DNA from: Candidatus Magasanikiibacteriota bacterium
GTDB lineage: Bacteria > Patescibacteriota > Patescibacteriia > Magasanikbacterales > GWA2-37-8
Length of the DNA stretch: 64,000 nt
Direction: 5' to 3'
Assembly (NCBI GenBank): GCA_017991415.1
Contig: JAGOQR010000001.1
Span: 109,385 to 173,384, forward strand
Positions 4,162 to 56,354 of the stretch are shown here, piece by piece (position 1 is the stretch's first letter; every line of letters starts with the position of its first letter). The notes below the pieces were generated by a model. That model saw only the letters and a list, made by a program, of their open reading frames with translations. It made no database searches and had not been told where the DNA came from. The translations under genes and the position numbers were made by a program.

Positions 4162-5301
4162 TTATACCATACTGCGTAAAGCCAAACCAATAGCGACAGA
4201 AAGTCTCGGACCGATTTGACGTAAGACTGGCTTCAAACCATCTTGATAAACAACCCGAGCCCAAGAATCTCCTACATAACATTTTATTCTAAACTTACCT
4301 TCTATATATTTAGCCAGATATGGCATTAGGGCTGTACCGCCAGTTAAAATTATTTTTTCTGGACGCTTGCCTTCGTTACCAGTTTGACGCAAATAGACCT
4401 CGAGACTTATTTCTATCTCTTTCAACATTGGATCTATGACTGGCATAAGAATATCGAGCCACTTCTGCTCGCTTACGTTATTATTATTGGCCGAAGGCAG
4501 AAAGTCAAATAGATCGTACTTAATTTTTTCTACCAAATCTGATTCCACCCCTAAAATATTTTGTAAAATTTTATCCATTTTATCTCCTCCAGACTCGATT
4601 GTCTGATGAGTAATAGGAGCGCCATGATCAATAATAAAAAAATTTGTTCTCTCTGAACCAATATCAATAATCATGGCCACCGCTTGATCGCGACCCATAA
4701 GACACCTGGTGAGAGCAGTTGATTCTGGCTCGAGCGCTTCCAAAGTCAAACCAGATCGAGAAAAAACTTTTGAATAAAATTCTATTAGTTTGTATGGAAC
4801 AGCATTTACAAGCACTCGTTGACTCTGGTCAGAAGACAGCCCAGTAAGCACTTGAAAATCAAGCGCCATCTCTTCGAGCGGTACTGGTAATAATTTTTTT
4901 ACTTCTGCTTTAATAAGATGGTCTAGCTCTTCTTTTTTTACGAGAGGTAATGTAACAACTGCGTGAAAAACCGAAGACACTGGCAGGCTCACCACCGCTG
5001 TTTTGGAAATAATTTTGGAAGCTTTGCAAAGACCTTTTATAATTCCACTATATTTTTCAATATTTTCATCTGTAAACTGATCGGTAACAGAGCTGACAGA
5101 TTTCTTGGGGTCCTGGCCTATAAGATTTGCTAGATTTTTATCTTCTCGTACCTGCAATTTATGAATATCTTGTTTCGCAGAAGTAAGACCGTATGAAAAC
5201 AAAACGGGCCGTTTTTTTTCTAGCCTTAATTCTACTAATTTGATACCACTAGACCCAACATCAATACCTAGATACGACTTTTGCTTTAAAAAACCGAACA
5301 T
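4162..5301 (-). CDS. pilM: Type IV pilus assembly ATPase-like protein PilM
   Basis: Actin-like fold start LGIDVGSSGIKLVEL. 379 aa, located in the pilus gene context. Confidence 0.7.
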   Translation of the reverse strand: MFGFLKQKSYLGIDVGSSGIKLVELRLEKKRPVLFSYGLTSAKQDIHKLQVREDKNLANLIGQDPKKSVSSVTDQFTDENIEKYSGIIKGLCKASKIISKTAVVSLPVSSVFHAVVTLPLVKKEELDHLIKAEVKKLLPVPLEEMALDFQVLTGLSSDQSQRVLVNAVPYKLIEFYSKVFSRSGLTLEALEPESTALTRCLMGRDQAVAMIIDIGSERTNFFIIDHGAPITHQTIESGGDKMDKILQNILGVESDLVEKIKYDLFDFLPSANNNNVSEQKWLDILMPVIDPMLKEIEISLEVYLRQTGNEGKRPEKIILTGGTALMPYLAKYIEGKFRIKCYVGDSWARVVYQDGLKPVLRQIGPRLSVAIGLALRSMV

Positions 5302-6812: not shown

Positions 6813-7367
6813 ATGTCGATGTTTAAAATCCCCCACCTAACCACCAATACATTTTCCTTGCGAGAAAAATTTAGAATTTCGGAATTATTACTTTTTATTT
6901 TTATAGAAATATTTTTTCTAAATACTATCGTCAACTTATTGTTAAAATATAATGCTGGTTCGAGCGCTACCCTTATCACGCCTATCTTAACCGCCACAAC
7001 CATTGCTACTTTTTTTATTGTAGAAAAATATCGAGATCTCGAAGTGCATACCCACAGCATTAAAATCTACCATTGGGATCGACTAAAAACAGAAATTAAC
7101 AAAGACGATTTAGATAGAATTGAAATTAACCATGGTTTTAACGTACGCCCTTCCCTATTCAGCGTCCAACCTCACCACTACACCCATTATGTATCTATCC
7201 AATTTGTCCTTAAAAATGGAGAGGTCATAAAAAAATATAAACTCAACAACAGCAATATTCCTACCTTTAGCCACCTTCTCAAAGAACTTGGCTACCCCGT
7301 TATCACAGAAACAAACCATATCAAAACAGTACTCACAAAAATAAGGCCTATAGCCACTTCAAAATAG
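6813..7367 (+). CDS. Hypothetical membrane protein
   Basis: 184 aa with two predicted TM helices near the N-terminus. Starts 2 nt after the cysS stop. Confidence 0.4.
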   Translation: MSMFKIPHLTTNTFSLREKFRISELLLFIFIEIFFLNTIVNLLLKYNAGSSATLITPILTATTIATFFIVEKYRDLEVHTHSIKIYHWDRLKTEINKDDLDRIEINHGFNVRPSLFSVQPHHYTHYVSIQFVLKNGEVIKKYKLNNSNIPTFSHLLKELGYPVITETNHIKTVLTKIRPIATSK

Positions 7368-7390
7368 AACAAAAAGACGCTGATGCAAGA

Positions 7391-7419
7391 TTGACAAAAG
7401 CGTCTTTTTTTGATATAAT
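7391..7419 (+). promoter_or_regulatory. Consensus sigma70-type promoter TTGACA-N17-TATAAT upstream of high-GC island 1
   Basis: Exact TTGACA (7391-7396) and TATAAT (7414-7419) with a 17-nt T-rich spacer. The -35 lies in the loop of an AAAAAGACGC/GCGTCTTTTT hairpin. It is followed by a ~95-nt leader with a CGAAGC...GCTTCG hairpin and an AAGGAGAG SD. Confidence 0.6.
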
Positions 7420-7518
7420 GCTTCGTTGTTCTTTACAAATTTTGAGACTCTGATTGACCCACCTATCGAAGCAGTCGCTTCGGTGGTTCTATAGGGTCTC
7501 AACGATAAGGAGAGTCCG

Positions 7519-8523
7519 ATGAAGAACTTGTTTTGGTCCATCTTGACGATGGCCGCCATCATGCTCAGTCTCAGCGCGTGCGACGACTACCAAGTGATGC
7601 CGCACAGCACCTGCACCCAGGACAGCGAGTGCCCAAACACCAGCGTGTGCATCGAGAATTCTTGCGTGCTCCAAGTACCGCTCACCTGCGTGGAGCTCGG
7701 CTGCCCAAATGGCACCGAGTGCCAAGATGACGTATGTGTTGAGTTGGCGCCGCCACACAATGACTGCGATGCCTTTCAGTGGATGACGACTTCCCAGTGG
7801 TATTGCAACTATACTGAGGGAGAACCAGCACCAGAACCGTGGATTTGCCATCTCAATACCACAGACGGTACTGCAAGCGATGGCAGCTGCAACATTCAAT
7901 GCGCTGGCAACTTCTGGCTACCAACCCAGGAGTTCGATATCGACATGAACGCATCGCCGCCGCAGCTAAAAACAGACTACTACGGTCGAGAGTTTACATG
8001 TACCCAATACGTGTACATACCTCCATCGGCAACCTGTGGTATTGCTGTTCAGGTTCCAAATAGCCTTTCGGTGTTTGTTCAGCCGACTGGCAACGCAAAC
8101 CTGCTCTGGTTCGACTTCGTCAAAGTCGGGCCAGATTCACCTGAATGTTCTCCAGAAATCGTCAGGATCGAAATCTTGGAGATGGACAACGCGTTTGGCT
8201 TTATCCCGAATCCAAAGATGCAGATCGGAATTAACAACTCCTTTCTCGTCGCTCCTCTAGCAAACTATGGGGAAGCCGATAGTCTCCTGCCATGGTGGAG
8301 CAAGACTTACTACCAATGGGATGGCGTCGCGCCAGTCGGCAAGAAGACCACTATCCTGTTCAACTGCGATGGCAACTGCGGTCCGCCCAACATGCCGTCT
8401 AACCCCATCGTGCTTCACACCAAACTCTTGCGCTACTGGTGGAGGAAGAACCCAACAGCGCCAACGGTCTCTGGCAACGCGGGGGCAGAACACACGATCT
8501 ACTTCACCCCTCCTACCCTCTGA
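7519..8523 (+). CDS. Cysteine-rich secreted lipoprotein (high-GC island 1)
   Basis: Signal peptide with lipobox LSLSAC. About 58% GC against a ~35% background. An N-terminal cluster of CxxxC motifs resembles EGF-like Cys repeats. 334 aa. The many overlapping ORFs on both strands are GC artefacts. Confidence 0.6.
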   Translation: MKNLFWSILTMAAIMLSLSACDDYQVMPHSTCTQDSECPNTSVCIENSCVLQVPLTCVELGCPNGTECQDDVCVELAPPHNDCDAFQWMTTSQWYCNYTEGEPAPEPWICHLNTTDGTASDGSCNIQCAGNFWLPTQEFDIDMNASPPQLKTDYYGREFTCTQYVYIPPSATCGIAVQVPNSLSVFVQPTGNANLLWFDFVKVGPDSPECSPEIVRIEILEMDNAFGFIPNPKMQIGINNSFLVAPLANYGEADSLLPWWSKTYYQWDGVAPVGKKTTILFNCDGNCGPPNMPSNPIVLHTKLLRYWWRKNPTAPTVSGNAGAEHTIYFTPPTL

Positions 8524-8656
8524 CCAACCCTCCTTCTTGGCCTCACAACGCCGACCAGGAGATTCGATGCACACAAGGTGCATGCGAACGTGAACGGCTG
8601 CTACGAGAATGCAGCCGATTGAATTAAATTTCTAAACTCTTGGAAATTTATCCAAA

Positions 8657-8690
8657 CAAAAAACCGACTCATAAACAAAGTCGGTTTTTT
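8657..8690. terminator. Bidirectional intrinsic terminator
   Basis: AAAAAACCGACT-cataaacaa-AGTCGGTTTTTT hairpin with A/T runs on both sides. Sits between the convergent genes at 7519-8523 and 8700-9650. Confidence 0.7.
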
Positions 8691-8699
8691 ATTTTTAAG

Positions 8700-9650
8700 T
8701 TAATCCATCCATTTTTTAGCTTTAAAAGCGACAAGCATAGACAAAGCGCCTGCTAGTGTAACCAAGGAAATTATCCAAAAACCATAGGGGCTGGTAACAA
8801 ACGGCGTACCGCCAGCATGGATAGCAAAAATAGTAGCTACCAGAGTAAGCGGGAACGTGGTTACAGAGATAATCGTGAGTGTCTTCATAATCTCGTTCAT
8901 ACGAAGTCCTACCACAGATTCGTTTGTTTCGTCGAGCGCATCGGCACTTTCTTTGTGACTTTCGAGGGTATGCCAAATATCCATAGTATAGTCACGAACA
9001 GTATTTATATAGCTTTGATATGCCAGCAAGTTAAGATCTCGGCCGCCAATAGAAACGAGGCGATCCAAGACAATTTTATGACTTTGCATGGCTCTACGAA
9101 AGTTAGTCACGTTCATTTTGAGACGCAAAATTTCTTCGGCCATTTTTCTATCAGGAATTCTGGTAAACAAAATTTTATCAATTGAATTTATATCTTCATT
9201 TATATGAAGCAAAATAGGAAAAATAGATTCGAGCAATCGATTAAGAATTTCAAAAAAAATGTGAGTAGCTGCTCCTTGAAAATATAATTCTCGCACCTCT
9301 GTTTTTTTCTGACACTCCTTAAAAAAATTGTCTATGACTTGTAAGCTATTGTCATGAACAGTAATTAGGTTGCTGCCACTTAAGAAAAAATCTACTTCTG
9401 TAAACCCAAGGCGCCTAGTCGCGCGATCAAAAACAGGAAAATGCAACACCAAAAAATAGTAACTATCTCTTTTAACGAACTTTGGACGTTGAAATGAGGG
9501 TAAGCTTTCTCGCACCTCCTGATCAGCAAGATTAAATCTTTTTTGCAATGTTCGTAAAACTTTTTCTTCTGGCTGCGTAACATTTACCCACTGCAAACTG
9601 CTGCTTTGTATTTCATTTATATTCTTCATAGAAGAAAAAGATTGAACCAA
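8700..9650 (-). CDS. CorA-like divalent cation transporter (atypical pore motif)
   Basis: 316 aa with a cytoplasmic N-domain and two C-terminal TM helices. The conserved LTxxTxxFxPxT stretch is present, but the GMN motif is replaced by AIHAGG. Confidence 0.55.
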   Translation of the reverse strand: MVQSFSSMKNINEIQSSSLQWVNVTQPEEKVLRTLQKRFNLADQEVRESLPSFQRPKFVKRDSYYFLVLHFPVFDRATRRLGFTEVDFFLSGSNLITVHDNSLQVIDNFFKECQKKTEVRELYFQGAATHIFFEILNRLLESIFPILLHINEDINSIDKILFTRIPDRKMAEEILRLKMNVTNFRRAMQSHKIVLDRLVSIGGRDLNLLAYQSYINTVRDYTMDIWHTLESHKESADALDETNESVVGLRMNEIMKTLTIISVTTFPLTLVATIFAIHAGGTPFVTSPYGFWIISLVTLAGALSMLVAFKAKKWMD

Positions 9651-14592: not shown

Positions 14593-14622
14593 CTTGACTT
14601 GCGCTATTTCTATGATACAATC
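14593..14622 (+). promoter_or_regulatory. Candidate promoter for tRNA-Gln
   Basis: TTGACT-N16-TACAAT located ~30 nt upstream of the tRNA 5' end. Confidence 0.45.
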
Positions 14623-17444: not shown

Positions 17445-17509
17445 ATACACATGGCAATACTGCGCTCTAACTTATTGACACAGCGAATAATTTACTTTAT
17501 TTTATAGCC

Positions 17510-18160
17510 ATGGACATCAAAATCGAAATCCTCATCGGCGCTCCTACCTCGGTTCTGGGCGCCCTGGGTATTCGAGGCGCCAAGATTACCCTCACACCAA
17601 GGCAAAAGGGTAAGAGCCTCCCCCGCTTATGGATTGACAAAAAAGAGCACTTCTCCTACTTCTTCACCATCGAAGAGGCCCAAAAAGGACTAGACCGCAT
17701 CCTGATTTCTAGACCTAGGATTAAGATCAAGATTTTGCGGAGGCTGCGCAAAGCGGGTCTGTTCTGGGATATGGAGTCAGTCCTGTCCTACTGCCAGAAA
17801 CTCGCTGTTATCAAAGATTCAACATACGACTTCGTGAAGTGCACGCGTTGCGCCTACGCGTCGCTGGTGCCCCACGGCTGGATAGTCACAGAAGGGAAAC
17901 TGATCCAGACAAAGATTCCGATACTGCTCCACCAACAGGTCACAAACCTGAAAGACCTCATCTTTAGGTTCTGTGCCGAAGGAGTCTGGCTTGGCGAGAT
18001 CCCTCTCAAAGCAGCCCTTTGGGTGATCCATCAAGGCGCAAAGGCGCAAATGGGAGCAGACTCTCGAGGCCTTCTAAGACTGCTGCTACAAGACCCAATT
18101 CGACACCTCCGGGGGCCACTTCCAACAGACCACCACATCTGTCGCGAAACAGGTCCATAA
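17510..18160 (+). CDS. Hypothetical protein (high-GC island 2)
   Basis: 216 aa ORF at about 55% GC with no recognisable domain. TTGACA-N19-TTTTAT lies directly upstream and there is no SD. It is the least convincing of the seven high-GC islands. Confidence 0.4.
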   Translation: MDIKIEILIGAPTSVLGALGIRGAKITLTPRQKGKSLPRLWIDKKEHFSYFFTIEEAQKGLDRILISRPRIKIKILRRLRKAGLFWDMESVLSYCQKLAVIKDSTYDFVKCTRCAYASLVPHGWIVTEGKLIQTKIPILLHQQVTNLKDLIFRFCAEGVWLGEIPLKAALWVIHQGAKAQMGADSRGLLRLLLQDPIRHLRGPLPTDHHICRETGP

Positions 18161-34948: not shown

Positions 34949-36226
34949 TTAGTATCTTCTGCGGAAATTTCTGTTGCCACCGCTATTTCCACCGCCATAT
35001 CCGCCGCCTGAAGAACGTCTTGGTGGAAAATTACCTCGGCGTCTATTATCTTCTTCTTTAAAGAAACTTGGCGCAGCATTAGCTCGACGTGGAGGCAAGA
35101 CCGGCAAAGACATAACAGGAATAGTCTTTTTGATAAGGCGTTCGATTTGTTTAATATCGCTTCTTTCATCTGGAGAAGCAAAAGAGATTGCTTTACCAAA
35201 ACTTTCGGCACGACCAGTACGACCGATACGGTGCACGTAATCTTCAGAATTATCTGGAAGATCGTAGTTAATTACCAAAGAAATACCAGTTACATCAATA
35301 CCGCGAGAAGCAATATCGGTTGCCACGAGCACTCTATATTTTCCGGTTTTAAATCCTTGCAATGCTTCTTTGCGCTGACCCAACGATCTGTTGGAATGAA
35401 TTTCTGCAGCGGTATGACCCATGCCACGTACGTTCATATTAATTCTTTTTGCACCATGTTTAGTGCGAGAGAAAATTAATACCGAACCAGTGGTCTCGGA
35501 TAAAATCTTGTCGAGTAACTGAGTTTTAGCGTCTTTATTTACGATAAATAATTCCTGTTCTACATTTTTGGAAGAAGTACCTGCTGGAGCTACTTCAATG
35601 CGCAACGGAATTTTCATATAGCGACTAGCAATTTCGGCAATCGCGCGAGGCATAGTAGCCGAAAACATAAGCGTCTGGCGATCGGTAGGTACCAAGGATA
35701 AAATCTGTTTAATCTGCGGCATAAACCCAATATCAAACATGCGATCAGCTTCATCAAGCACCACAATTTTCATGCGGTTAAGCGTTAAGTTTCTTTGTTC
35801 CAAGTGGTCTACAAGTCTGCCTGGCGTTGATACAATAATATGTGGCCCACGAGCCAACATTTGTCTTTGTTGATACGCAGAAGCACCACCAATAAGCACA
35901 GCTGTGCGAAGCCCTAACGGACGACCAACTTTTTGCAATACTTCATCTACCTGAAGCGCTAATTCGCGAGTAGGTAACAAAATTAACCCTTGAGCTGGGC
36001 CAGGAGCCTGTGAAAGCAATTGAATCATTGGGATACCAAAAGCCATGGTTTTACCCGTACCAGTCTGGGCAATACCAACGATATCTTTACCTTGCAAAGC
36101 CTGAGGAATACACTGATGCTGGATAGGTGTGGGCGTAACATATTTCAATCGCTCCAAATTATCTAAGAGTTTCGGAGCAATGCCAAGGTCGCTAAAACGA
36201 GCTTGGACTTGTGCGTTCTGTGTCAT
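34949..36226 (-). CDS. DEAD-box ATP-dependent RNA helicase
   Basis: Q-motif region, AQTGTGKT, DEAD (VLDEADRMFD), SAT, HRIGRTGRAG, and a Gly/Arg-rich C-tail. Confidence 0.9.
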   Translation of the reverse strand: MTQNAQVQARFSDLGIAPKLLDNLERLKYVTPTPIQHQCIPQALQGKDIVGIAQTGTGKTMAFGIPMIQLLSQAPGPAQGLILLPTRELALQVDEVLQKVGRPLGLRTAVLIGGASAYQQRQMLARGPHIIVSTPGRLVDHLEQRNLTLNRMKIVVLDEADRMFDIGFMPQIKQILSLVPTDRQTLMFSATMPRAIAEIASRYMKIPLRIEVAPAGTSSKNVEQELFIVNKDAKTQLLDKILSETTGSVLIFSRTKHGAKRINMNVRGMGHTAAEIHSNRSLGQRKEALQGFKTGKYRVLVATDIASRGIDVTGISLVINYDLPDNSEDYVHRIGRTGRAESFGKAISFASPDERSDIKQIERLIKKTIPVMSLPVLPPRRANAAPSFFKEEDNRRRGNFPPRRSSGGGYGGGNSGGNRNFRRRY

Positions 36227-36368
36227 ACTAAATTGTTTAGTGACCCGATAAAACTTTGGTCACTATAACTATGACACAAGAGATTCGAGTCTAAGGTTAG
36301 CTAAAATGCTACCTATAACTTAAGAAGGCACTAGTATAGCATAAAATAGGGGTTTTGTCAAGGTAATA

Positions 36369-36398
36369 TTGACAAGGCTTACTATTTTTTGTTATATT
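36369..36398 (+). promoter_or_regulatory. Promoter module TTGACA-N18-TATATT upstream of high-GC island 4
   Basis: Similar to the island 1 and island 5 promoters (TTGACAAGGCTTACTATTTTTTGTTATATT). The downstream leader has a GGCTATAAATTTATAGCC palindrome and an AAGGAG SD 8 nt before the ATG. Confidence 0.45.
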
Positions 36399-36522
36399 TG
36401 TTTATTCTCCTAATTTTAAGGGGTTTTTGACTCTTTACAAAATGCATATAAGTTACAGGGCAGGAATTTTATGGCTATAAATTTATAGCCCTAGAGTCCT
36501 TGTCCTGTGGCAAGGAGCTGCA

Positions 36523-37146
36523 GTGATGTATCGCGAAAGCGAAAGGACGACCGTGAGACTCACAAACATATACGTTTGCACCTCCTCCGCTGAGCTGCAA
36601 AATGCTCTTCAGGCTGCATTCCAGCCCTTTGAGTCCCTACCGAAGGGCAACTCTGGCGAAATGCTCGCTTGGGCCATGATCCGCTGGGTCCGCACAAAGA
36701 CCAAAGACGATGATCAGCTTAGCGCGGCGACTGCAGTTCTTCGACTCGTTCAACAGGCCAGAACTAAGGAGCACTGCACTGTCGAATTCGGGACCTCCCA
36801 CGTGAGCCTTCATACCCCTTACACCTCACGCACACAGATCAGTCTATATTGGTACCACAATGACAACTATCACGTTGAGGTAAAATTCGGAAACAGAGGC
36901 TCTGAGACGCGGGCGATGATAATCCTGGAAACGGCCGAACGAAATGGAGTAAAATTCGATGCTTACCACGATCAAAAACGCATCGAACGCCGAGAGGTAC
37001 TGGGTGCTCTGCTCCACCGAGCCATACAGCAACTCGAGCAGATCGAAGCTTCCCCGGTGAGAAAGGGCTTTCCCAGGCGCTACAAGACTGCGGCCATAAC
37101 CAAAGCTCGGGCCACTGTCGCCTTTTTCGAAGGTCTCACAGCGTAG
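36523..37146 (+). CDS. Hypothetical cytoplasmic protein (high-GC island 4)
   Basis: 207 aa at about 57% GC, with no signal peptide and no motif recognised. Confidence 0.45.
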   Translation: MMYRESERTTVRLTNIYVCTSSAELQNALQAAFQPFESLPKGNSGEMLAWAMIRWVRTKTKDDDQLSAATAVLRLVQQARTKEHCTVEFGTSHVSLHTPYTSRTQISLYWYHNDNYHVEVKFGNRGSETRAMIILETAERNGVKFDAYHDQKRIERREVLGALLHRAIQQLEQIEASPVRKGFPRRYKTAAITKARATVAFFEGLTA

Positions 37147-42793: not shown

Positions 42794-42992
42794 AAAACTT
42801 CTTTAAGAAATAAATCTATAATACTGAATTAATATAATAGCTCTAAAGAAGAATAAAATCAAACGAATTAGTAAAAAAATAGAGACTAAAATCTTTTTTA
42901 AATAAAAGCGCACCGTGGGTACAGTGCGCGAGGACGGCAGCGAGATGTCGTCGAAGACGAACAAGTCGCATGTTGCTGAAAGAACGAAGGAA

Positions 42993-43652
42993 CTAGTGCA
43001 AGCAGCGAAACTTGGCAGGCGCGGGACGATTCGCATCGTCTTCGGCCAACCTAGCTGCTGGAGCCGTGTAGCTCGAGTCGCAACTTGCGTGGCGGCAGAT
43101 TTCTTTCACATCTGCGCCAGTGACACGCCAACTGCTTGCTGGCGTAGTCATCACAGCGTGCGATCCTTCGGCAAGATGCTCTGCACCGAGCGCATGACCG
43201 AGCTCGTGAGCGACTACGTTCTGCATCATCCAGGTGCAGGACGTGTTGGGAGCACAAGCGCCGTTGCCATAGACGAAGACGTTGTCTCCGTCATACTCTC
43301 CGGCGAGCGAATCGCTCTCATCTTCGGGACGAGCTCCTTCCCACAGATCCCTACCCTCTTCGGTGGGGTAGTTCTCGTAGATCCAGTACACACACCGGAT
43401 TCCGCTGTTCTCTCCGCTACCGTAGAGACCCGGCTTCTCGCTGCCGTAGACGAAGAACTTGTTCTTGTTCTCGTATCGGGCATTGAGATTGAGATCGTCG
43501 ATAGCCGCCTTGATCTGGTCGATCTGCGGCTGAAGCCAGCCGCCACAGGCATAAACCGTGACGGTTTCCTGCCTGGCCACCTCTGGAAGAGGGGGCGCTC
43601 CTTCGCAGGCCGTAAGCACTGCGAAGCAACACAGAAGAATGAAACACTTCAT
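42993..43652 (-). CDS. Lipoprotein metzincin-type zinc metalloprotease (high-GC island 5)
   Basis: Signal peptide with lipobox VLTAC. Extended zinc-binding motif VVAHELGHALGAEH (HExxHxxGxxH). About 62% GC. 219 aa. Confidence 0.6.
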   Translation of the reverse strand: MKCFILLCCFAVLTACEGAPPLPEVARQETVTVYACGGWLQPQIDQIKAAIDDLNLNARYENKNKFFVYGSEKPGLYGSGENSGIRCVYWIYENYPTEEGRDLWEGARPEDESDSLAGEYDGDNVFVYGNGACAPNTSCTWMMQNVVAHELGHALGAEHLAEGSHAVMTTPASSWRVTGADVKEICRHASCDSSYTAPAARLAEDDANRPAPAKFRCLH

Positions 43653-43722
43653 GTGAGACTCCTCTCAGGCTTTGGCCTGTCGATTGTCATAGTGCCAACT
43701 GTAGGCACGATGATATAATCGC

Positions 43723-43751
43723 ATTATACCAAAAAACAAGGCTTTTGTCAA
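43723..43751 (-). promoter_or_regulatory. Consensus promoter TTGACA-N17-TATAAT for the metzincin gene, near-identical to the island 1 promoter
   Basis: Minus-strand sequence is AAGGCTTGACAAAAGCCTTGTTTTTTGGTATAATGC, against island 1's TTGACAAAAGCGTCTTTTTTTGATATAATGC. The -35 again lies in a hairpin. The leader has an AGGAG SD 6 nt before the ATG. Confidence 0.55.
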
Positions 43752-43820
43752 GCCTTTTCTGCTTATTTTTTGCTAATTATAGAGAAAAAATATACTCCTT
43801 CCACTCATTCTATCTGCCTA

Positions 43821-44243
43821 TCACCTACCCTTCCGAACAAAACTACTTGACTCAAAAAATTTATGAGAAAACCGATACACAACCGTTAGAAAAAACCAGT
43901 ATACCGCATGCTCAATATCAATAAATCCGTATACATTAAGTGGACGAGCGCTATAGTCCCACAACCGATACCCGAGCAAATACAAAGAAACTACTCCCCC
44001 AAAAAATTCCAAAGCCACACATAAAACCGTACCTATAATTACCTGAGGCCAAAATGAAATATTGCCAACAGAAAAAAATGCGTAAAGCATAACTGCGCCA
44101 AATGCATAAATAAAAGCAAAGAATGGCATGAGTGTTCCTGGCATATACTCGCCAATCACGAGCGAACGATAAGCAGTATCCAAAACCCATCCAAAAAATC
44201 CACCACCAATAAAAATAGCTAGATACAAATAGATTTTACGCAT
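43821..44243 (-). CDS. Membrane protein
   Basis: 140 aa with four TM helices. Confidence 0.4.
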   Translation of the reverse strand: MRKIYLYLAIFIGGGFFGWVLDTAYRSLVIGEYMPGTLMPFFAFIYAFGAVMLYAFFSVGNISFWPQVIIGTVLCVALEFFGGVVSLYLLGYRLWDYSARPLNVYGFIDIEHAVYWFFLTVVYRFSHKFFESSSFVRKGR

Positions 44244-45806: not shown

Positions 45807-45835
45807 TTGACAAGCGCCACTTTTTATGCTAAAAT
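45807..45835 (+). promoter_or_regulatory. Promoter module TTGACA-N17-TAAAAT upstream of high-GC island 6
   Basis: TTGACAAGCGCCACTTTTTATGCTAAAAT. It is followed by a nested-hairpin leader at 45851-45898 (AGCCCCTA...CCCGTAGC-aaatcc-GCTACGGG...TAGGGGGCT), then an AAAGGA SD and a GTG start. Confidence 0.45.
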
Positions 45836-45960: not shown

Positions 45961-46467
45961 GTGCCCACTCGTCTTTCCCTTCTGGCCCTCGTGCTCGCAG
46001 CTTGCACCGCGGTGCACCGCCCCAACCTCTCCGACGACACGGTCAACAAGAAGACCAACGTCTTCTGGCAGATCGAGGTGCTCAGCCCGCCGCCGAACTG
46101 CGGCCTGATCGTGTTCCATAACCAGCCCGGCGAAACCACAGCTCTGCCGATGCAAGTCGTGGAGGGCAAGGCCAACGTATTCAGTGCCACGTCCCCCATC
46201 GATACGCCGCTCAAGTTCATGATCGAGGTGAAGATTCGCGACAACACCAACGAGTGTGTCTCCTGGACGAACTACTGCGGCCCCATCACCATGCGGCATG
46301 GCCGTTCGCTCCAGACTTTGCACAAAACACGCCCAATCTTCTGGGCGCTCATGTCCTTCGCCGAGGGCGATGGCATCTCGAGCTTGAACTCAAGTACTGT
46401 CGAGCCGTTTCCAGGCTGGACACCGCTCACCTGCGAGTACCGTTCGTTCGGCTGGAACGAGAACTGA
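45961..46467 (+). CDS. Lipoprotein, hypothetical (high-GC island 6)
   Basis: GTG start 6 nt after the AAAGGA SD. Lipobox LAAC. 168 aa at about 60% GC. Confidence 0.5.
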   Translation: MPTRLSLLALVLAACTAVHRPNLSDDTVNKKTNVFWQIEVLSPPPNCGLIVFHNQPGETTALPMQVVEGKANVFSATSPIDTPLKFMIEVKIRDNTNECVSWTNYCGPITMRHGRSLQTLHKTRPIFWALMSFAEGDGISSLNSSTVEPFPGWTPLTCEYRSFGWNEN

Positions 46468-50266: not shown

Positions 50267-50740
50267 TCACCCGTAGAACCCCAGCCACTTCTGATACCAG
50301 TGCGGCGGGTAGACCTCGTCGGCGCGCAGAACCTGGTCGTCCTCAGACGAGCTGACCTCAACAGGGTTGGTTCGCACATCCATGTTCACGAGGAACTGGA
50401 AGTCGCACGCCCCCTTGCCGAGGTAGGTCGAAATCACAGCCACACCCCGATCATCAGACCATACCCGACCGTAGTAGTCGAAGCCGCTGTACCCGACGAG
50501 CGGGATGCTGAGCTTGAACCCAACTAGCGCACAGAACGGCTTGGAGCTTCGTAGGACGATGTTGGCCATCCGCCCCTTCTCCTTGCTTCCCTCGTAGCGC
50601 CAGACGATCAGATGGTCCGACCGTTTGACGAAGTCCTGCATGAAGCCGAACTTCTTGAGGTGCTCGCGACCAAGGAAGATCGCAAGCGGCACGAAGACAA
50701 GAACCAGGGTGACCAGAACAATAATGAGAGCCGTCATCAA
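50267..50740 (-). CDS. Membrane-anchored hypothetical protein (high-GC island 7)
   Basis: 157 aa at about 58% GC, with an N-terminal TM helix. The likely ATG is at 50737 because the first codon of the track ORF is TTG. The promoter TTGACC-N17-TATGCT at 50783-50811 (minus strand) has the same architecture as the other islands. The leader has a CGACTGCA...TAGTCG hairpin and a GGAGG SD. Confidence 0.45.
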   Translation of the reverse strand: MMTALIIVLVTLVLVFVPLAIFLGREHLKKFGFMQDFVKRSDHLIVWRYEGSKEKGRMANIVLRSSKPFCALVGFKLSIPLVGYSGFDYYGRVWSDDRGVAVISTYLGKGACDFQFLVNMDVRTNPVEVSSSEDDQVLRADEVYPPHWYQKWLGFYG

Positions 50741-50864
50741 GCCTCCAGGTAATGCCGACTACACCATGCAGTCGAACAAAAGAGCATAACACAAAAACAA
50801 GCTCTGGTCAAGCCTGCAAGAAGAATAATTAAGAAGACCGCTACAAATTTTAGCCACTCATATC

Positions 50865-53371: not shown

Positions 53372-53477
53372 ATAAATTGGTTATATAAACTATGGCTGCT
53401 ATAATAGCACGATTCAAAATTCTGAACAATTAATATAAATACTAAAAACTTGTCGTTGATACGATAGCTTAGCTTAC

Positions 53478-53530
53478 AAAAAATCACTTAGCAGGCATTG
53501 TGGGATGAGATAGGAACTTATTTGGCTAAG
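53478..53530 (+). repeat. Array repeat copy A (conserved 40-nt box only)
   Basis: GCAGGCATTGTGGGATGAGATAGGAACTTATTTGGCTAAG. The TAG of GGCTAAG is the stop codon of the 53526-53963 gene. Confidence 0.7.
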
Positions 53531-53963
53531 ATATAGGGTACAAAACATACCAAGGGCTATTCGGCAACTGCTTTCTAACTCCAGCTCTTACTCTATCTAT
53601 ACTAGGAAAATCATACCAAGGATCAACCCAACCACCCTTCACTCTTAACAAGTAATGACCGATAGGATACTTGGTATTTTTGACTATTAAGGTAATAGAG
53701 CCTTCAATTTTAGAAAATTTATCGGCTTCTTGTAGGTTTATTTTGTATCTTTTGTTTTGATTGAAAAACTTACTTTTATAATCTAGGTTGTGAGTTTTTA
53801 AATATTTAACAATATCAAAAATCTTTATACCTTTTTCAATGGTATAAAATTTACTCTCAAAATCTTTTTTAACCTCATCGTAAGATTTATTTAATAGATT
53901 AGCTAAACAAGCGATCCCGCAGCCATTTATATCTTTTTGATGTTGGGGTTTTATCGGAGCCAT
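53526..53963 (-). CDS. Papain-like cysteine peptidase domain protein (C39-like)
   Basis: QHQKDINGCGIACLANLL matches the catalytic Cys context of C39/bacteriocin-processing peptidase domains. 145 aa stand-alone. Confidence 0.45.
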   Translation of the reverse strand: MAPIKPQHQKDINGCGIACLANLLNKSYDEVKKDFESKFYTIEKGIKIFDIVKYLKTHNLDYKSKFFNQNKRYKINLQEADKFSKIEGSITLIVKNTKYPIGHYLLRVKGGWVDPWYDFPSIDRVRAGVRKQLPNSPWYVLYPIS

Positions 53964-53971
53964 ACAGGGAT

Positions 53972-54676
53972 TTAGGAAACTACTTTATAGATGATATGTA
54001 GGTAGGAATTCTTAAGTTTTTGTACCTTGTCTAAACTTAAGGTTTTAATATATTTTAAATCGCTGTCTTTGCGCAAAGAAAGTCCGTCAACTAAAGAAGG
54101 GGTGTCTTTGCCGCCTACTATACATGGAACCACTACCACGGACAGCCGGTCAATAAGTCCTTTTCTAAATAATTCAGCATTCATACTCCCGCCGGATTGT
54201 AGAGTAATTTTTTTCATTTTAAACTTTTCTTTAAGATCAATAAATAATCTTGTTAAATCAACCTTTTTTGAATGAAATACGACTTCTAAATTATTTAGGT
54301 TGCGCATCATAAATGCCGAATGCTGCTTATTGGTAGTAACCAATATTAACCGCTTCACCCATTTTGTTAAATACAAGACACCTTTATCGGTCAGATGTGG
54401 TTTATTATCTACAATAATAAAAGTGCAAGGTGATTTTATCTGCGGTTCTTTTTTAGTGTTAACACCGATCTTGGCCATTACCCGACCTGTGTTAAATGAA
54501 TTAATATCCGTCGTTTTCTCAATATCATAATACTGATACAAGCCCTCTTTTACTCCCTTCACCTTTTTTAGATCAATATCAAAATCCCTGGAATCAATAT
54601 CTCCGGTTGATATTTTACCGTCTGCTGACATTAACATATACAGCGTTGTTTTGGGCGTATTTTTTGGCATGTACAA
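53972..54676 (-). CDS. Dihydrofolate reductase-like / RibD C-terminal domain family protein
   Basis: YMLMSADGKISTGD and C-terminal SGG...GLIDRL pattern. The track start is TTG; a likely ATG lies at 54670. Confidence 0.55.
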   Translation of the reverse strand: MYMPKNTPKTTLYMLMSADGKISTGDIDSRDFDIDLKKVKGVKEGLYQYYDIEKTTDINSFNTGRVMAKIGVNTKKEPQIKSPCTFIIVDNKPHLTDKGVLYLTKWVKRLILVTTNKQHSAFMMRNLNNLEVVFHSKKVDLTRLFIDLKEKFKMKKITLQSGGSMNAELFRKGLIDRLSVVVVPCIVGGKDTPSLVDGLSLRKDSDLKYIKTLSLDKVQKLKNSYLHIIYKVVS

Positions 54677-54751
54677 AAATTAATAATTAGTACATATACA
54701 ATGCCATTTATATTTTATATTGCAAGCCCGTTTATCCACATGGTTCTAGAT

Positions 54752-54826
54752 AAGAATAACCGCTTGGTTAAGCGACTATTTTTCTGTGCAGGCCTTGTGG
54801 GATGAGAGCGAAACTTATTTGGTTAA
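54752..54826 (+). repeat. Array repeat copy B
   Basis: AATAACCGCTTGGTTAAGCGACTATTTTTCTGTGCAGGCCTTGTGGGATGAGAGCGAAACTTATTTGGTTAA. Confidence 0.75.
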
Positions 54827-54842
54827 AAATGAAGATTAAAAT

Positions 54843-55556
54843 TTATTGCATAATCCTCTGAATCTCATTTTTTAGATGTTCGGCTGACCAACCAATCAAT
54901 AACCTTCCCTGCTCTTTGTCCACTACCCATTTTGGGTGCCTATCATGAATTCCATCTTTACTAAAATCTTTAAGCGGGTGCTTATCATCCCAATCATACC
55001 CAATATCTTTCTTAGGATAGTTAGCTGGCGGTACAGTTACTAGGTCCTCATCAATAGCCAGCACCATAGAAGTTTCAGTATTCCCTGCATGATCATCTAC
55101 CGGCCCATTAATCAACTCCATTGTTTTCTGCAAGACTGGCTCTGGATCAAGAGTTATATAATGTAATTTTACTGATCCTAACTCTGCGGTATATTTTTCA
55201 ATAAAACGATCAATCGTGCCTAGATTACCTCCATGCCAGGATATAAAAATAATGTTACTTGCATAATCCTTGAGCGACATAGAAATATCTCGAAGCATAA
55301 GCATTAGGGTTTCTTTTTCAACCCATACAGTGCCAGGAAAACCAATATGTTCTTTGGAACAAGTAATCTCTAGTGTTGGTAAGAAAATTGCTTCAGGGCA
55401 TTCTTTAATGGCTTTTTCCAACATAGCATTCTGGCAATAAGTATCTGTACCGATTGGTAAAAAAGGGCCATGCTGTTCGGTGGCACCCATTGGTAAAACA
55501 AATGTATATTTCTTTTCTTGATTGAAATCAGTTGTTTTGAGTTCTTTTAACAACAT
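54843..55556 (-). CDS. Creatininase-family amidohydrolase
   Basis: LPMGATEQHGPFLPIGTDT signature plus metal-binding His/Asp/Glu. 237 aa. Confidence 0.75.
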   Translation of the reverse strand: MLLKELKTTDFNQEKKYTFVLPMGATEQHGPFLPIGTDTYCQNAMLEKAIKECPEAIFLPTLEITCSKEHIGFPGTVWVEKETLMLMLRDISMSLKDYASNIIFISWHGGNLGTIDRFIEKYTAELGSVKLHYITLDPEPVLQKTMELINGPVDDHAGNTETSMVLAIDEDLVTVPPANYPKKDIGYDWDDKHPLKDFSKDGIHDRHPKWVVDKEQGRLLIGWSAEHLKNEIQRIMQ

Positions 55557-55584
55557 ACTAATTAAAATAATTATTGAGCCATGG

Positions 55585-55717
55585 TTATTCTATCTTTTCA
55601 GCTAATGGTAGTCAATTCGGTTCTAAATTTAGAAAAGGATATAAAAATAACCGCCTGATTAAGCGATTATTTTATTTGCAGGCGTTGTGGGATGAGAGCG
55701 AAACTTATTTGGCTAAG
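55585..55717 (+). repeat. Array repeat copy C (full: promoter, hairpin and box)
   Basis: On the minus strand, TTGACT (55610-55615) N17 TAGAAT (55587-55592) sits ~30 nt upstream of the 54843-55556 start. Then hairpin AAAAATAACCGCCTGATTAAGCGATTATTTT and box GCAGGCGTTGTGGGATGAGAGCGAAACTTATTTGGCTAAG, which ends 18 nt from the stop of the 55735-56337 gene. Confidence 0.8.
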
Positions 55718-55734
55718 AATGAAGAACAATTTTT

Positions 55735-56337: not shown

Positions 56338-56354
56338 AACATGTAAATAGGAAT

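What the first reader, a model, noticed from the sequence alone, without database searches (positions are those of the whole stretch)
7391..7419. Near-identical 33-nt consensus promoter shared by two unrelated high-GC genes 35 kb apart on opposite strands
Upstream of the Cys-rich lipoprotein the sequence is TTGACAAAAGCGTCTTTTTTTGATATAATGC. Upstream of the metzincin lipoprotein (minus strand, 43723-43751) it is TTGACAAAAGCCTTGTTTTTTGGTATAATGC. About 27 of 31 positions are identical, including the non-consensus spacer and the GC after the -10. In both cases the -35 is embedded in a hairpin. The promoters of islands 4, 6 and 7 are more diverged versions of the same pattern. A shared promoter cassette on otherwise unrelated foreign genes suggests a common capture or expression mechanism, or a common designer.
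Basis: seen in the sequence. Interest (0 to 1): 0.5.

Follow-up and report, generated by a model that had tools for sequence, protein, structure and literature searches.

The report
Consensus promoters overlapping terminator hairpins
Two unrelated GC-rich genes in this small-genome (Patescibacteria) bacterium are each driven by a textbook-perfect promoter built into the terminator hairpin of the gene upstream; the promoters look alike because both fit one widespread promoter form, not because one was copied from the other, but in this bacterial group that form sits unusually often in front of GC-rich orphan genes.

Summary
Window 7391-7421(+) and 43751-43721(-) share 27/31 bases. They are the only two perfect TTGACA-17-TATAAT promoters in the window, both with an extended -10 TG.

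In each, the -35 lies in the loop of a hairpin followed by a T-run, just downstream of the preceding gene's stop codon. This looks like an intrinsic terminator overlapping a promoter.

Both promoters and hairpins are conserved in orthologous, syntenic loci of other Magasanikbacteria, with compensatory stem changes, although synonymous sites are nearly saturated.

The similarity stops exactly at the 31-nt core. The same 29-nt pattern occurs in at least 119 species and 82 viral contigs, in front of tRNA and tmRNA genes in Clostridia. The window pair is no more alike than class members from different genomes. So this is convergence on a common strong-promoter/terminator form, not a mobile cassette or design.

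In Patescibacteria, 42% of ORFs downstream of this promoter form are GC3-rich, against 3% of other ORFs (p=3e-11). In Firmicutes the figure is 0%. These ORFs are unrelated orphans.

I infer that strong promoters compensate for non-native codon usage. This is not shown.

The parts
7371..7411 (+). Site 1 hairpin plus T-run. The 5' arm is AAAAAGACGC (7371-7380), the 19-nt loop holds the -35, the 3' arm is GCGTCTTTTT (7400-7409), and the T-run is 7405-7411. It starts 4 nt after the stop codon of ORF 6813-7367. Inferred to be the intrinsic terminator of the CysRS/184-aa operon.
   Evidence: -15.3 kcal/mol, z=-4.4. The arms are conserved in L008 and L089 while the loop diverges; the A-to-G changes in the L089 5' arm would leave G-U pairs on the sense strand only (my reading of the sequences printed; the alignment misaligned this arm).
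7391..7421 (+). Site 1 promoter core. The -35 TTGACA is 7391-7396, the 17-nt spacer is 7397-7413, the TG is 7411-7412, the -10 TATAAT is 7414-7419, followed by GC.
   Evidence: From TTGACA through TATA, 27/27 bases are identical in L008 and L089, where the -10 reads TATATT.
7442..7502 (+). Long stem-loop in the 5' UTR of the site 1 gene (TTGAGACTC...GGGTCTCAA), followed by the RBS AAGGAG at 7507-7512.
   Evidence: UTR fold -31.6 kcal/mol, z=-3.1. One search shows the structure kept in 3 species, with only one-sided or G-U changes and no double compensations.
7519..8523 (+). GC-rich ORF of 334 aa (GC 0.54, GC3 0.65). Cys-rich protein with a lipoprotein-type signal (LSLSAC). No Pfam, PHROG or PDB match.
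   Evidence: Only 2 homologue clusters. Syntenic orthologue at 66% aa identity. Codon-position identity of 0.74/0.79/0.48 shows purifying selection.
8659..8696 (.). Hairpin CCGAC...GTCGG flanked by an A-run and a T-run. Inferred bidirectional terminator shared by the site 1 gene and the convergent CorA gene (8700-9650, minus strand).
   Evidence: Conserved in L008.
43771..43776 (-). TTAGCA(AAAA) upstream element, starting exactly 25 nt 5' of the -35. It reads TTAGCCAAAA in all orthologues.
   Evidence: A TTAGCC-like motif lies at -24 to -26 in 14/59 Patescibacteria hits against 0/55 Firmicutes hits. Function unknown.
43731..43756 (-). Site 2 hairpin plus T-run. The 5' arm is AAGGCTT (43756-43750, whose last TT is the start of the -35), the loop is GACAA, the 3' arm is AAGCCTT (43744-43738), followed by G and T6 (43736-43731). 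It lies 64 nt after the stop codon of ORF 43821-44243. Inferred terminator of the SH3/rhodanese/CmpB operon.
   Evidence: Covariation across 7 orthologous loci: pair 28-44 is AU in 4 and GC in 3; pair 27-45 is AU, GU or GC; pair 30-42 is GC or UG.
43721..43751 (-). Site 2 promoter core. The -35 TTGACA is 43751-43746, the 17-nt spacer is 43745-43729, the TG is 43731-43730, the -10 TATAAT is 43728-43723, followed by GC.
   Evidence: Conserved in L136, L012, L013, L139, L137 and L135.
43653..43722 (-). 5' UTR of the site 2 gene with two stem-loops (CGTGCC...GGCAC and CAGGCC...GCCTG) and the RBS GAGGAG.
   Evidence: -25.2 kcal/mol, z=-4.0. The first helix is partly covarying.
42993..43652 (-). GC-rich ORF of 219 aa (GC 0.58, GC3 0.65). 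Lipoprotein signal (LTAC) and an HELGHALGAEH zinc-protease motif, so metzincin-like at motif level only.
   Evidence: (fragilysin and MMP, E about 0.004, over the motif only). 7 homologue clusters, one of them named Magasanikbacteria by its source record. Codon-position identity 0.82/0.86/0.61.
42901..42929 (-). Terminator-like hairpin GCGCAC...GTGCGC followed by TTTTATTT, after the site 2 gene.
36335..36400 (.). Back-to-back divergent promoters of the same general form. The (+) promoter TTGACAAGGCTTACTATTTTTTGTTATATT serves GC-rich ORF 36523-37146. The (-) promoter TTGACAAAACCCCTATTTTATGCTATACT serves the native DEAD-box helicase 34949-36226. Together they form a 60-nt palindrome.
   Evidence: -24.4 kcal/mol, z=-8.2.
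45807..45835 (+). Promoter TTGACAAGCGCCACTTTTTATGCTAAAAT (11/12, with TG) of GC-rich lipoprotein ORF 45961-46467 (GC3 0.82).
50794..50822 (-). Promoter TTGACCAGAGCTTGTTTTTGTGTTATGCT (9/12, with TG) of GC-rich ORF 50267-50740 (GC3 0.79). Coordinates are approximate to +/-2 nt.

Best explanation
Each site is a maximal-strength housekeeping (sigma-70/sigma-A type) promoter: -35 TTGACA, a 17-bp spacer, an extended -10 TGn, and TATAAT. Each is superimposed on the intrinsic-terminator-like hairpin that ends the upstream operon. The hairpin loop carries the -35. The G+C-rich 3' arm and the U-tract of the hairpin fill the spacer. The TG and -10 follow directly.

Because termination and initiation together constrain almost every one of the 31 positions, two independent sites converge on nearly the same sequence.

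Each composite drives a self-contained, single-gene unit: a structured 5' UTR, a strong RBS, a GC-rich lineage-restricted ORF, and its own terminator.

Shown here: the sequence anatomy, its conservation, the stem covariation, the wide distribution of the promoter form, and the statistical link to GC-rich ORFs in Patescibacteria.

Inferred: that the sites actually start and stop transcription. Also inferred: that strong promoters are selected on these genes to offset poor translation of non-native, GC-ending codons.
For: (1) Promoter quality. These are the only two 12/12 matches in 64 kb, both with TG. They sit 99 and 70 nt upstream of ORFs that have good RBSs.

(2) Terminator anatomy. Each is a stem followed by a T-run, 4 nt and 64 nt after the stop of a co-directional upstream gene.

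(3) The structure is selected. Site 2 stem pairs covary across 7 orthologous loci (AU to GC at two pairs, plus G-U intermediates). By my reading of the sequences, the site 1 arms are kept while the loop diverges, and L089 would keep pairing through G-U pairs that work only on the sense RNA strand.

(4) The whole core is selected, spacer included. It is 27/27 identical between the window and L008/L089. Four-fold sites of the neighbouring native genes are near saturation (0.30-0.41 identical against 0.27 expected).

(5) Convergence rather than copying.
- The alignment ends at the core, falling to 61% over 51 nt.
- At free positions the window pair scores 8/20, against 7.0 +/- 2.3 for class members from different genomes. 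Within-genome pairs are no closer than between-genome pairs (p=0.19).
- The window and L136 read TTTTTTG where the five more distant orthologues read TTTTGTG. I infer that part of today's identity is derived.

(6) The form is generic.
In Clostridia it precedes tRNA, tmRNA and ordinary genes.
- 83 other strong promoters give the consensus TTGACAaa...T[AG]TGnTATAAT.
- In viral contigs the GC+TTTT version (82 hits) outnumbers CC+TTTT (25), GC+AAAA (15) and AT+TTTT (60).
- Complementarity between the upstream flank and the spacer is enriched in viral hits (p=1e-8) and in Patescibacteria hits (32% against 15%, p=0.04).

(7) Codon-compensation idea.
- In Magasanikbacteria locus L040, ribosomal-protein genes have GC3 of 0.22-0.39, while the adjacent orphan behind this promoter has 0.82. 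GC-ending codons are therefore not the preferred codons of highly expressed native genes.
- Experimental evolution after transfer of codon-mismatched genes is reported to compensate through upstream or promoter changes rather than amelioration (PMC6427688).
Against: - No transcript data: neither start sites nor 3' ends were observed.
- The site 2 hairpin is weak on energy (z=-1.6).
- In L135 a stronger terminator already precedes the site 2 hairpin, yet the hairpin is kept. Termination may not be its only role.
- In Firmicutes hits, flank-spacer complementarity is not enriched. The hairpin is therefore not a necessary part of the class.
- The compensation idea is untested.
- Among 8 GC3-rich transcription-unit-leading ORFs flagged elsewhere in the Patescibacteria loci, none had an 11/12 promoter. 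At least two of the eight are start-extended calls of ORFs that do lie behind the pattern.
- Native genes can also have 11/12 promoters: the DEAD-box helicase, a thioredoxin-like gene, and the L10 operon in L040.
- Pairwise identity of 15/19 outside the hexamers is rare among generic strong promoters (about 1e-3). Convergence needs the extra terminator constraint to explain it.
Confidence: 0.68

Rival explanations
1. A dedicated expression module or regulon. Patescibacteria would use a specific promoter architecture to express a class of GC-rich, lineage-restricted genes under common control. The architecture would be a TTAGCC element about 25 nt upstream of the -35, a hairpin-embedded -35, an AAARGC/T-run spacer, and a GTT start. 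A factor would recognise the upstream element or the hairpin.
For: - The link is strong and clade-specific: 15/36 against 12/389 ORFs GC3-rich in Patescibacteria, and 0/21 in Firmicutes.
- DNA downstream of the pattern is GC-richer in 42-45% of Patescibacteria hits, against 0-9% for the upstream control.
- The TTAGCC element sits at a fixed distance, in 14/59 Patescibacteria against 0/55 Firmicutes hits. It is modestly associated with GC-rich downstream DNA: 10/14 against 14/41, p=0.027 uncorrected. It is invariant in all seven site 2 orthologues.
- 15 other strong promoters in the same loci showed no GC shift of 0.08 or more.
Against: - The variable spacer bases covary with the upstream flank. 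That is structure, not a fixed operator sequence.
- Site 1 lacks the TTAGCC element.
- The GTT motif is not linked to GC-rich targets.
- More than half of the Patescibacteria hits precede ordinary-composition DNA.
- The core form is shared with Firmicutes tRNA promoters and phages.
- Some of the 15 'other strong promoters' may be chance intragenic matches, which would make that control weak.
Confidence: 0.15
2. Copied DNA. The two promoters descend from one sequence spread by a mobile-promoter process, gene conversion, or a cassette that brought the promoter with each foreign gene. The flanks have since decayed.
For: - Identity of 15/19 outside the hexamers is rare among unrelated strong promoters (about 1e-3).
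- The promoter travels with its gene when neighbours change. The gene upstream of the site 2 unit is CmpB, rhodanese or an FAD/Rieske protein in different species.
- The genome does hold a truly duplicated intergenic promoter/terminator element at 53.4-59.8 kb.
Against: - The alignment is 31 nt, with random-level flanks. It fails the published criterion of at least 50 nt at 80% or more (PMC3488235).
- The true repeat family in the same window aligns over 48-88 nt in register, with overlapping families spanning about 150 nt.
- The window pair is no more alike than class members from different genomes.
- Each promoter family has kept its own spacer for as long as the species have diverged.
- No orthologue lacking the gene, and no target-site duplication, was found.
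Confidence: 0.1
3. Selection for very high expression alone. These are simply the most highly expressed genes of the cell, such as abundant surface lipoproteins. Both the consensus promoter and the GC-rich coding sequence are expression optimisations, for example for mRNA stability.
For: - Perfect promoters, stable 5' stem-loops, strong RBSs and strong terminators.
- About half of the GC-rich ORFs have a crude N-terminal hydrophobic stretch and 7 of 41 have a lipobox-like motif, by simple pattern rules rather than a signal-peptide predictor.
- GC3 is kept in orthologues.
Against: - Ribosomal-protein genes in a related genome have GC3 of 0.22-0.39, and L7/L12 has 0.22.
- A probable abundant surface protein behind the same promoter in Paceibacterota has GC3 of 0.21-0.22 in loci with overall GC 0.40 and other-ORF median GC3 0.38-0.39.
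- Native genes with 11/12 promoters in the window are not GC-rich.
Confidence: 0.05
4. Chance resemblance, or an engineered or artefactual sequence.
For: A-runs and T-runs are common in a 39% GC genome.
Against: - 0 matches expected in shuffles.
- Conserved in orthologues.
- The same loci were assembled independently from several environmental runs at 99.2-100% identity.
Confidence: 0.02

Closest known systems
Gram-positive-type sigma-A promoters with an extended -10 / '-16 region' (TRTGnTATAAT), e.g. B. subtilis Pveg (recalled from memory, not tested here)
   Same: TTGACA followed by A's, a 17-bp spacer, a T-rich distal spacer, TG at -15/-14, and TATAAT. 83 independent strong promoters from the fetched loci give the same consensus. 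The same 29-nt pattern precedes tRNA and tmRNA genes in Clostridia.
   Different: Here the proximal spacer is the G+C-rich 3' arm of a hairpin whose loop holds the -35. Patescibacteria copies often add a TTAGCC element 25 nt upstream and a GTT 5 nt after the -10, both absent from Firmicutes copies.
Intrinsic (Rho-independent) terminators, including bidirectional ones
   Same: A G+C-containing stem-loop followed by a U-tract, just downstream of a co-directional stop codon. An A-run lies 5' of the stem. Stem pairs covary.
   Different: The loops are unusual: 19 nt at site 1, and 5 nt containing part of the -35 at site 2. The U-tract doubles as the promoter spacer. The site 2 stem has only 7 bp, 3 of them G-C.
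Putative mobile promoters (Matus-Garcia, Nijveen, van Passel 2012; PMC3488235)
   Same: Similar promoter sequence in front of non-homologous genes, with non-homologous upstream genes.
   Different: That class requires at least 50 nt at 80% identity or more. Here only 31 nt align, and identity is 61% over 51 nt. The 53.4-59.8 kb intergenic repeat family of this same window looks like it fits that class, but only the identity and length of its copies were measured.
Phage 'morons' (autonomous promoter-ORF-terminator units of atypical base composition inserted between genes; recalled from memory)
   Same: Each island is a single-gene unit with its own strong promoter and terminator. Its G+C content is 13-21 points above that of its neighbours.
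   Different: The units are not in a prophage. Their neighbours are CysRS, CorA, a type IV secretion coupling protein and an ABC transporter. There are no PHROG matches apart from one marginal hit (E=0.004) for the 50267-50740 ORF. The units are syntenic and vertically inherited across species rather than variably present.

Membership tests
Sigma-70/sigma-A housekeeping promoter with extended -10 | -35 hexamer close to TTGACA and -10 hexamer close to TATAAT, separated by 17 +/- 1 bp | tested here: met
   Both sites score 6/6 + 6/6 with a 17-bp spacer. They are the only such sites in the window.
Sigma-70/sigma-A housekeeping promoter with extended -10 | TG dinucleotide one base upstream of the -10 | tested here: met
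   TG at 7411-7412 and at 43731-43730.
Sigma-70/sigma-A housekeeping promoter with extended -10 | Lies upstream of, and co-oriented with, a gene, and is conserved in orthologous loci | tested here: met
   The cores lie 99 and 70 nt upstream of the start codons. They are conserved in 2 (site 1) and 6 (site 2) other loci.
Sigma-70/sigma-A housekeeping promoter with extended -10 | Transcription actually starts 5-9 nt downstream of the -10 | not testable with these tools
   No transcript data are available.
Intrinsic terminator | Stable stem-loop immediately followed by a U-tract on the sense strand of the upstream gene | tested here: met
   Site 1: 11-bp stem, -15.3 kcal/mol, z=-4.4, followed by T7. 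Site 2: 7-bp stem followed by G and T6, -10.6 kcal/mol, z=-1.6, which is weak.
Intrinsic terminator | Pairing maintained in evolution (compensatory or G-U changes) | tested here: met
   Site 2: pair 28-44 is AU in 4 and GC in 3; pairs 27-45 and 30-42 have G-U or GC variants. Site 1: arms kept, with implied G-U pairs in L089, from only 3 sequences and by manual reading of the sequences.
Intrinsic terminator | Transcripts of the upstream gene end in the U-tract | not testable with these tools
   This needs Term-seq or in vitro termination assays.
Putative mobile promoter (PMP) family | Promoter regions align over at least 50 nt at 80% identity or more | tested here: not met
   Only 31 nt align (27/31). 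Identity is 61% over 51 nt and 52% over 71 nt. Criterion taken from PMC3488235.
Putative mobile promoter (PMP) family | Upstream and downstream coding sequences are not homologous | tested here: met
   The downstream ORFs are unrelated (no BLASTP hit between them). The upstream genes are a 184-aa protein and CmpB.
Phage moron | Autonomous unit with its own promoter and terminator, and base composition unlike its neighbours | tested here: met
Phage moron | Located within a phage or prophage genome | tested here: not met
   The neighbours are housekeeping and cell-envelope genes. None of the island ORFs has a convincing PHROG match; one marginal hit, E=0.004.
Phage moron | Present in some relatives and absent in others at the same site | tested here: inconclusive
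   Every relative found carries the gene. The search for empty sites returned one truncated locus.

The most novel reading that the evidence does not exclude
Patescibacteria of the Magasanikbacteria/Uhrbacteria group carry a dispersed class of unrelated, GC-rich orphan genes with no recognisable domain. About half have an N-terminal hydrophobic stretch that could be a signal peptide or membrane anchor. These genes would be expressed through one shared, specialised promoter module: the TTAGCC element near -60, a hairpin-embedded -35, a T-run/TG spacer, and a GTT start. The module would be a clade-specific system for installing and expressing genes of foreign composition, possibly symbiosis or host-interaction effectors, rather than a mere by-product of consensus promoters.
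Probability: 0.2. Interest if true: 0.7.

Novelty: new member of a known kind. Interest (0 to 1): 0.4.

Why it matters
On its own the pair is ordinary: two excellent housekeeping promoters that double as terminators in a compact genome. It does show that near-identical promoters need not mean copying.

The wider result may matter more. Almost nothing is known about transcription signals in Patescibacteria. My full-text searches found no paper on their promoters or on GC-rich islands in them.

Three things came out of the cross-genome scan:
- a usable description of a strong promoter form in this phylum;
- two positioned, phylum-specific flanking motifs;
- a statistically strong, unexplained rule that this form marks GC-rich orphan genes.

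If those genes are acquired or host-directed effectors, the promoter form gives a simple sequence handle for finding them in thousands of uncultured genomes. It would also offer a natural test of the idea that promoter strength evolves to offset codon mismatch after gene transfer.

Tried and rejected
- Rfam at gathering thresholds found only tRNA-Gln in the window. It found no RNA family immediately downstream of the promoter in 18 Patescibacteria loci. The GC-rich DNA is therefore not a known structured RNA.
- A fixed-register test for a stem next to the -35 gave few cases: 7 hits with 5 or more pairs, against 1.2 expected. An RNAfold test with swapped flanks was borderline (p=0.07). Both were replaced by the duplex-energy test.
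- The search for 'empty sites' lacking the site 1 island used a metagenome scan with the upstream 184-aa protein. It returned one truncated locus and was uninformative.
- An independent test asked whether other GC-rich ORFs in Patescibacteria loci have strong promoters. Only 8 cases turned up, at least two of them start-extended calls of ORFs behind the pattern, and none had an 11/12 promoter. This is too small to decide.
- A within-genome against between-genome similarity test found no excess (p=0.19). Copying or concerted evolution was rejected on this basis.
- High expression as the cause of GC richness was rejected from ribosomal-protein GC3 values.
- Phage origin of the island ORFs: no convincing PHROG hits.
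- Pfam on 10 GC-rich ORFs from other genomes gave no hits. Among the window's 7 islands only 42993-43652 hit, and only weakly: three zinc-protease families, each below its curated cut-off.
- Literature searches for Patescibacteria promoter motifs or GC-rich islands found nothing relevant.
- Caveat on labels: many record titles read 'uncultured Gammaproteobacteria'. I treated these as probable mislabels, because L089 and L107 carry orthologues of the two window genes with the same promoters and L107 is the contig of the syntenic locus L012. They were analysed as a separate group and behaved like the named Patescibacteria.
Full report

Yes. Window 7391-7421(+) reads TTGACAAAAGCGTCTTTTTTTGATATAATGC. 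Window 43751-43721(-) reads TTGACAAAAGCCTTGTTTTTTGGTATAATGC. A degenerate pattern covering both finds only these two sites, with none in 100 dinucleotide-preserving shuffles.

A scan of both strands shows they are the only two 12/12 matches to TTGACA-N17-TATAAT in 64 kb. Both have the extended -10 TG.

Identity is 27/31, and 15/19 outside the two hexamers. Among 3321 pairs of 83 independent strong promoters taken from other loci, 15/19 or better occurs at 3e-4 to 8e-4. The likeness is therefore more than 'both are consensus'.

BLAST of the 250-nt upstream regions aligns exactly these 31 nt and nothing else. Over 51 nt identity is 61%, so the flanks are at random level.

**2. Context**

The window is a chromosome segment of a Patescibacteria (CPR) bacterium close to Candidatus Magasanikbacteria. 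It encodes CysRS, PilM, CorA, a type IV secretion coupling protein and a DEAD-box helicase. A homologue of one island protein and many related loci carry that name.

Overall G+C is 39%. Seven single-gene islands have GC3 of 0.53-0.82, against 0.22-0.41 for the other ORFs.

The same loci were assembled independently from several environmental sequencing runs at 99.2-100% identity. This rules out an artefact or an engineered construct.

**3. Anatomy of the two sites**

*Site 1.* The operon CysRS/184-aa ORF stops at 7367. Four bases later AAAAAGACGC (7371-7380) pairs with GCGTCTTTTT (7400-7409), at -15.3 kcal/mol and z=-4.4. The 19-nt loop contains the -35. The 3' arm and a T7 run fill the spacer. 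TG and TATAAT follow.

*Site 2.* The SH3/rhodanese/CmpB operon stops at 43821. Sixty-four bases later AAGGCTT (43756-43750, whose last TT begins the -35) pairs with AAGCCTT (43744-43738) around the loop GACAA. G and T6 follow, then G, then TATAAT. The energy is -10.6 kcal/mol with z=-1.6, which is weak on its own.

Both sites have the form of an intrinsic terminator: an A-run, a stem-loop and a U-run, on the sense strand of the upstream genes.

Downstream of each promoter lie:
- a structured 5' UTR (z=-3.1 and -4.0);
- a strong RBS;
- a GC-rich ORF with a lipoprotein signal;
- a GC-rich 3' UTR and a terminator.

The ORFs are real genes. Codon-position identities to their orthologues are 0.74/0.79/0.48 and 0.82/0.86/0.61. 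The second ORF has an HExxHxxGxxH zinc-protease motif, with only motif-level similarity to fragilysin and MMPs. The first has no detectable relatives in Pfam, PHROGs or the PDB.

**4. Conservation**

The two proteins have only 2 and 7 homologue clusters among 5.8 billion sequences. All the loci I could read are syntenic Patescibacteria loci.

Between the window and these relatives, four-fold degenerate sites of native neighbours are close to saturation (0.30-0.41 identical against 0.25-0.28 expected). Those of the island genes are 0.41-0.50 identical.

Despite that divergence, the site 1 core from TTGACA through TATA is 27/27 identical in L008 and L089. Reading the sequences, the hairpin arms are kept while the loop has diverged. 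The A-to-G changes in the L089 5' arm would still pair as G-U, which works only in sense-strand RNA. The automatic alignment of this arm was misaligned.

The site 2 core and hairpin are kept in six other loci, with compensatory changes. Pair 28-44 is AU in four and GC in three. Pairs 27-45 and 30-42 show G-U or GC variants.

The gene upstream of the site 2 unit differs between species: CmpB, rhodanese, or an FAD/Rieske protein. The unit from TTAGCC(A)AAAA to the terminator nevertheless stays together.

The five more distant orthologues read TTTTGTG where the window and its closest relative read TTTTTTG. I infer that one of the identities with site 1 is a derived, convergent change.

**5. How general is the sequence?**

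Hits included Magasanikbacteria, Uhrbacteria, Paceibacterota, Saccharibacteria and other Patescibacteria, and many Clostridia.

In Clostridia the pattern often lies directly in front of tRNA genes, a tmRNA and ordinary genes. IMG/VR holds it in 82 viral contigs.

*Consensus.* Eighty-three other strong promoters in the fetched loci give the consensus TTGACAaa...T[AG]TGnTATAAT. About half of the non-hexamer identities of the window pair are therefore general promoter consensus.

*Control scans of the viral collection.* The GC+TTTT spacer (82 hits) is favoured over CC+TTTT (25), GC+AAAA (15) and AT+TTTT (60).

*Hairpin potential.* Complementarity between the upstream flank and the spacer is enriched in viral hits (p=1e-8) and Patescibacteria hits (32% against 15% at -8 kcal/mol or lower, p=0.04). 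It is not enriched in Firmicutes hits.

*Copying test.* At the 20 positions the class pattern leaves free, the window pair agrees at 8. Class members from different genomes agree at 7.0 +/- 2.3. Six within-genome pairs are not closer than between-genome pairs (p=0.19). Once class membership is granted, nothing is left that needs copying to explain it.

**6. Contrast with a truly copied promoter element in the same window**

Between 53.4 and 59.8 kb, unrelated small native genes are separated by five or six copies of a repeated intergenic element. The genes encode RibD_C, creatininase, serine hydrolase, NUDIX, EamA and EEP domains.

The copies are 69-88% identical over 48-88 nt in register, and overlapping repeat families span about 150 nt. 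The element contains a conserved block, a terminator hairpin and a TTGAC-N-TTAGC-N-GATAGAAT promoter.

That is what duplicated promoter DNA looks like in this genome. It appears to fit the published definition of putative mobile promoters, which asks for at least 50 nt at 80% identity or more (PMC3488235); I measured only the identity and length of its copies. The pair in the finding fails that definition.

**7.

*In the window.* Promoters scoring 11/12 or better precede 4 of 7 islands but only 2 of 37 native transcription-unit leaders (Fisher p=0.003).

*Across the scan hits.*
- The 600 nt downstream of the pattern are GC-richer than the rest of the locus in Patescibacteria. The median shift is about +0.06, and 42-45% of loci shift by +0.08 or more, against 0-9% for an upstream control.
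- Firmicutes show no shift: median -0.006, and 0/51 at +0.08 or more.
- In Patescibacteria, ORFs of 90 aa or more behind the pattern are GC3-rich (at least 0.20 above the locus median) in 15/36 cases. Other ORFs of the same loci are GC3-rich in 12/389 cases (odds ratio 22, p=3e-11).
- In Firmicutes the counts are 0/21 against 1/316.

*What these ORFs are.*
- They are unrelated to each other apart from orthologues.
- Ten of ten tested have no Pfam domain.
- No known RNA family explains the GC-rich DNA.
- About half have a crude N-terminal hydrophobic stretch and 7 of 41 a lipobox-like motif, by simple pattern rules.
- One Uhrbacteria genome has three such sites in front of three different GC-rich ORFs (L052, L114, L122).

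However, more than half of the Patescibacteria copies precede ordinary DNA, and the form is not exclusive to GC-rich genes.

**8. Why GC-rich orphans?**

GC richness is not the signature of high expression in this lineage. In Magasanikbacteria locus L040, L35, L20, L7/L12 and L10 have GC3 of 0.22-0.39. The orphan behind the promoter, immediately upstream of the L10 leader, has 0.82.

GC-ending codons are thus non-preferred there. Experimental work summarised in PMC6427688 reports that codon-mismatched transferred genes are compensated by changes upstream of the gene or in its promoter, not by amelioration.

My favoured, inferred reading has three parts:
- These single-gene units have non-native composition and need their own promoter, because a terminator insulates them from the upstream operon.
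- Selection has pushed that promoter to the optimum to offset poor translation.
- The overlap with the terminator then fixes the spacer as well.

This explains both the near-identity and the association. It remains untested. A dedicated regulatory module is the main rival.

Evidence for that rival is modest. TTAGCC lies exactly 25 nt upstream of the -35 in site 2, in all its orthologues, and at -24 to -26 in 14/59 Patescibacteria hits against 0/55 Firmicutes hits. It shows a marginal association with GC-rich targets (p=0.027, uncorrected).

**9. Verdict**

The sites are best read as composite intrinsic-terminator/consensus-promoter elements. Their likeness reflects convergence on a widespread, favoured form. 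They are not a shared mobile cassette, and they are not designed.

As a kind of element they are new members of known kinds.

The unexplained and, as far as my searches show, undescribed point is the strong Patescibacteria-specific association of this promoter form with unrelated GC-rich orphan genes. That association is what gives the finding moderate interest.

Noticed in passing
window 53400-59800 (repeat copies at about 53488, 54752, 55642, 56418, 57714, 58717; a partial copy at 59680): An array of unrelated small native genes (RibD_C, creatininase, an unknown, Ser_hydrolase, NUDIX, EamA, EEP) is separated by a repeated intergenic element. The copies are 69-88% identical over 48-88 nt, with overlapping families spanning about 150 nt. 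On the minus strand the element reads TTAGCCAAAT..CTCATCCCACAA.GCCTGC, then a terminator hairpin, then a TTGAC-N-TTAGC-N-GATAGAAT promoter. It looks like a genuine propagated promoter/terminator cassette, or a cassette-array-like region.
   Followed up: partly
L016-L134 (Patescibacteria subset); window 43771-43776(-): Two positioned motifs flank the promoter class in Patescibacteria only. A TTAGCC(A)AAA motif starts 24-26 nt 5' of TTGACA in 14/59 Patescibacteria hits against 0/55 Firmicutes hits. A GTT lies 5 nt 3' of the -10, probably the start region, in 22/59 against 0/55. TTAGCC is sometimes part of a palindrome TTAGCCAAAATGGCTAA (L123). Function unknown.
   Followed up: partly
window 17475-17512(+): The GC-rich ORF 17510-18160 has TTGACA-17-TATTTT ending 6 nt before its ATG (ATG begins at the 7th base), with no RBS. 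This suggests a leaderless mRNA.
   Followed up: no
window 36335-36400: Two divergent promoters of the same form sit back to back with overlapping -35 regions. One serves a GC-rich ORF and one the native DEAD-box helicase. Together they form a 60-nt near-perfect palindrome (-24.4 kcal/mol, z=-8.2).
   Followed up: partly
window 8624-8652; L008 about 5110-5140: An AT-rich inverted repeat TTAAATTTCTAAACTCTTGGAAATTTA lies between the convergent island gene and CorA. It is conserved almost exactly in a species whose synonymous sites are near saturation. Function unknown.
   Followed up: no
window 14594-14621(+) and 43766-43747(-): The tRNA-Gln promoter (TTGACT-16-TACAAT with TG) shares the 16-nt stretch GCAGAAAAGGCTTGAC with site 2, upstream of and including the start of the -35.
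   Followed up: no
L042 533-5704; L040 3300-4130: In other Patescibacteria genomes, GC-rich orphan ORFs behind this promoter sit right next to core expression loci. In L042 a 537-aa ORF (GC3 0.88) follows the 23S-5S rRNA genes. In L040 a 96-aa ORF (GC3 0.82) lies between a tRNA and the L10 leader.
   Followed up: partly
L042, L050, L053, L057, L059, L060, L063, L079, L087, L089, L091-L093, L096, L100, L107, L108, L124, L125, L128: Many TPA MAG records titled 'uncultured Gammaproteobacteria' behave like Patescibacteria. L089 and L107 carry orthologues of the two window genes with the same promoters, and L107 is the contig of the syntenic locus L012. The record titles look like mislabels.
   Followed up: partly
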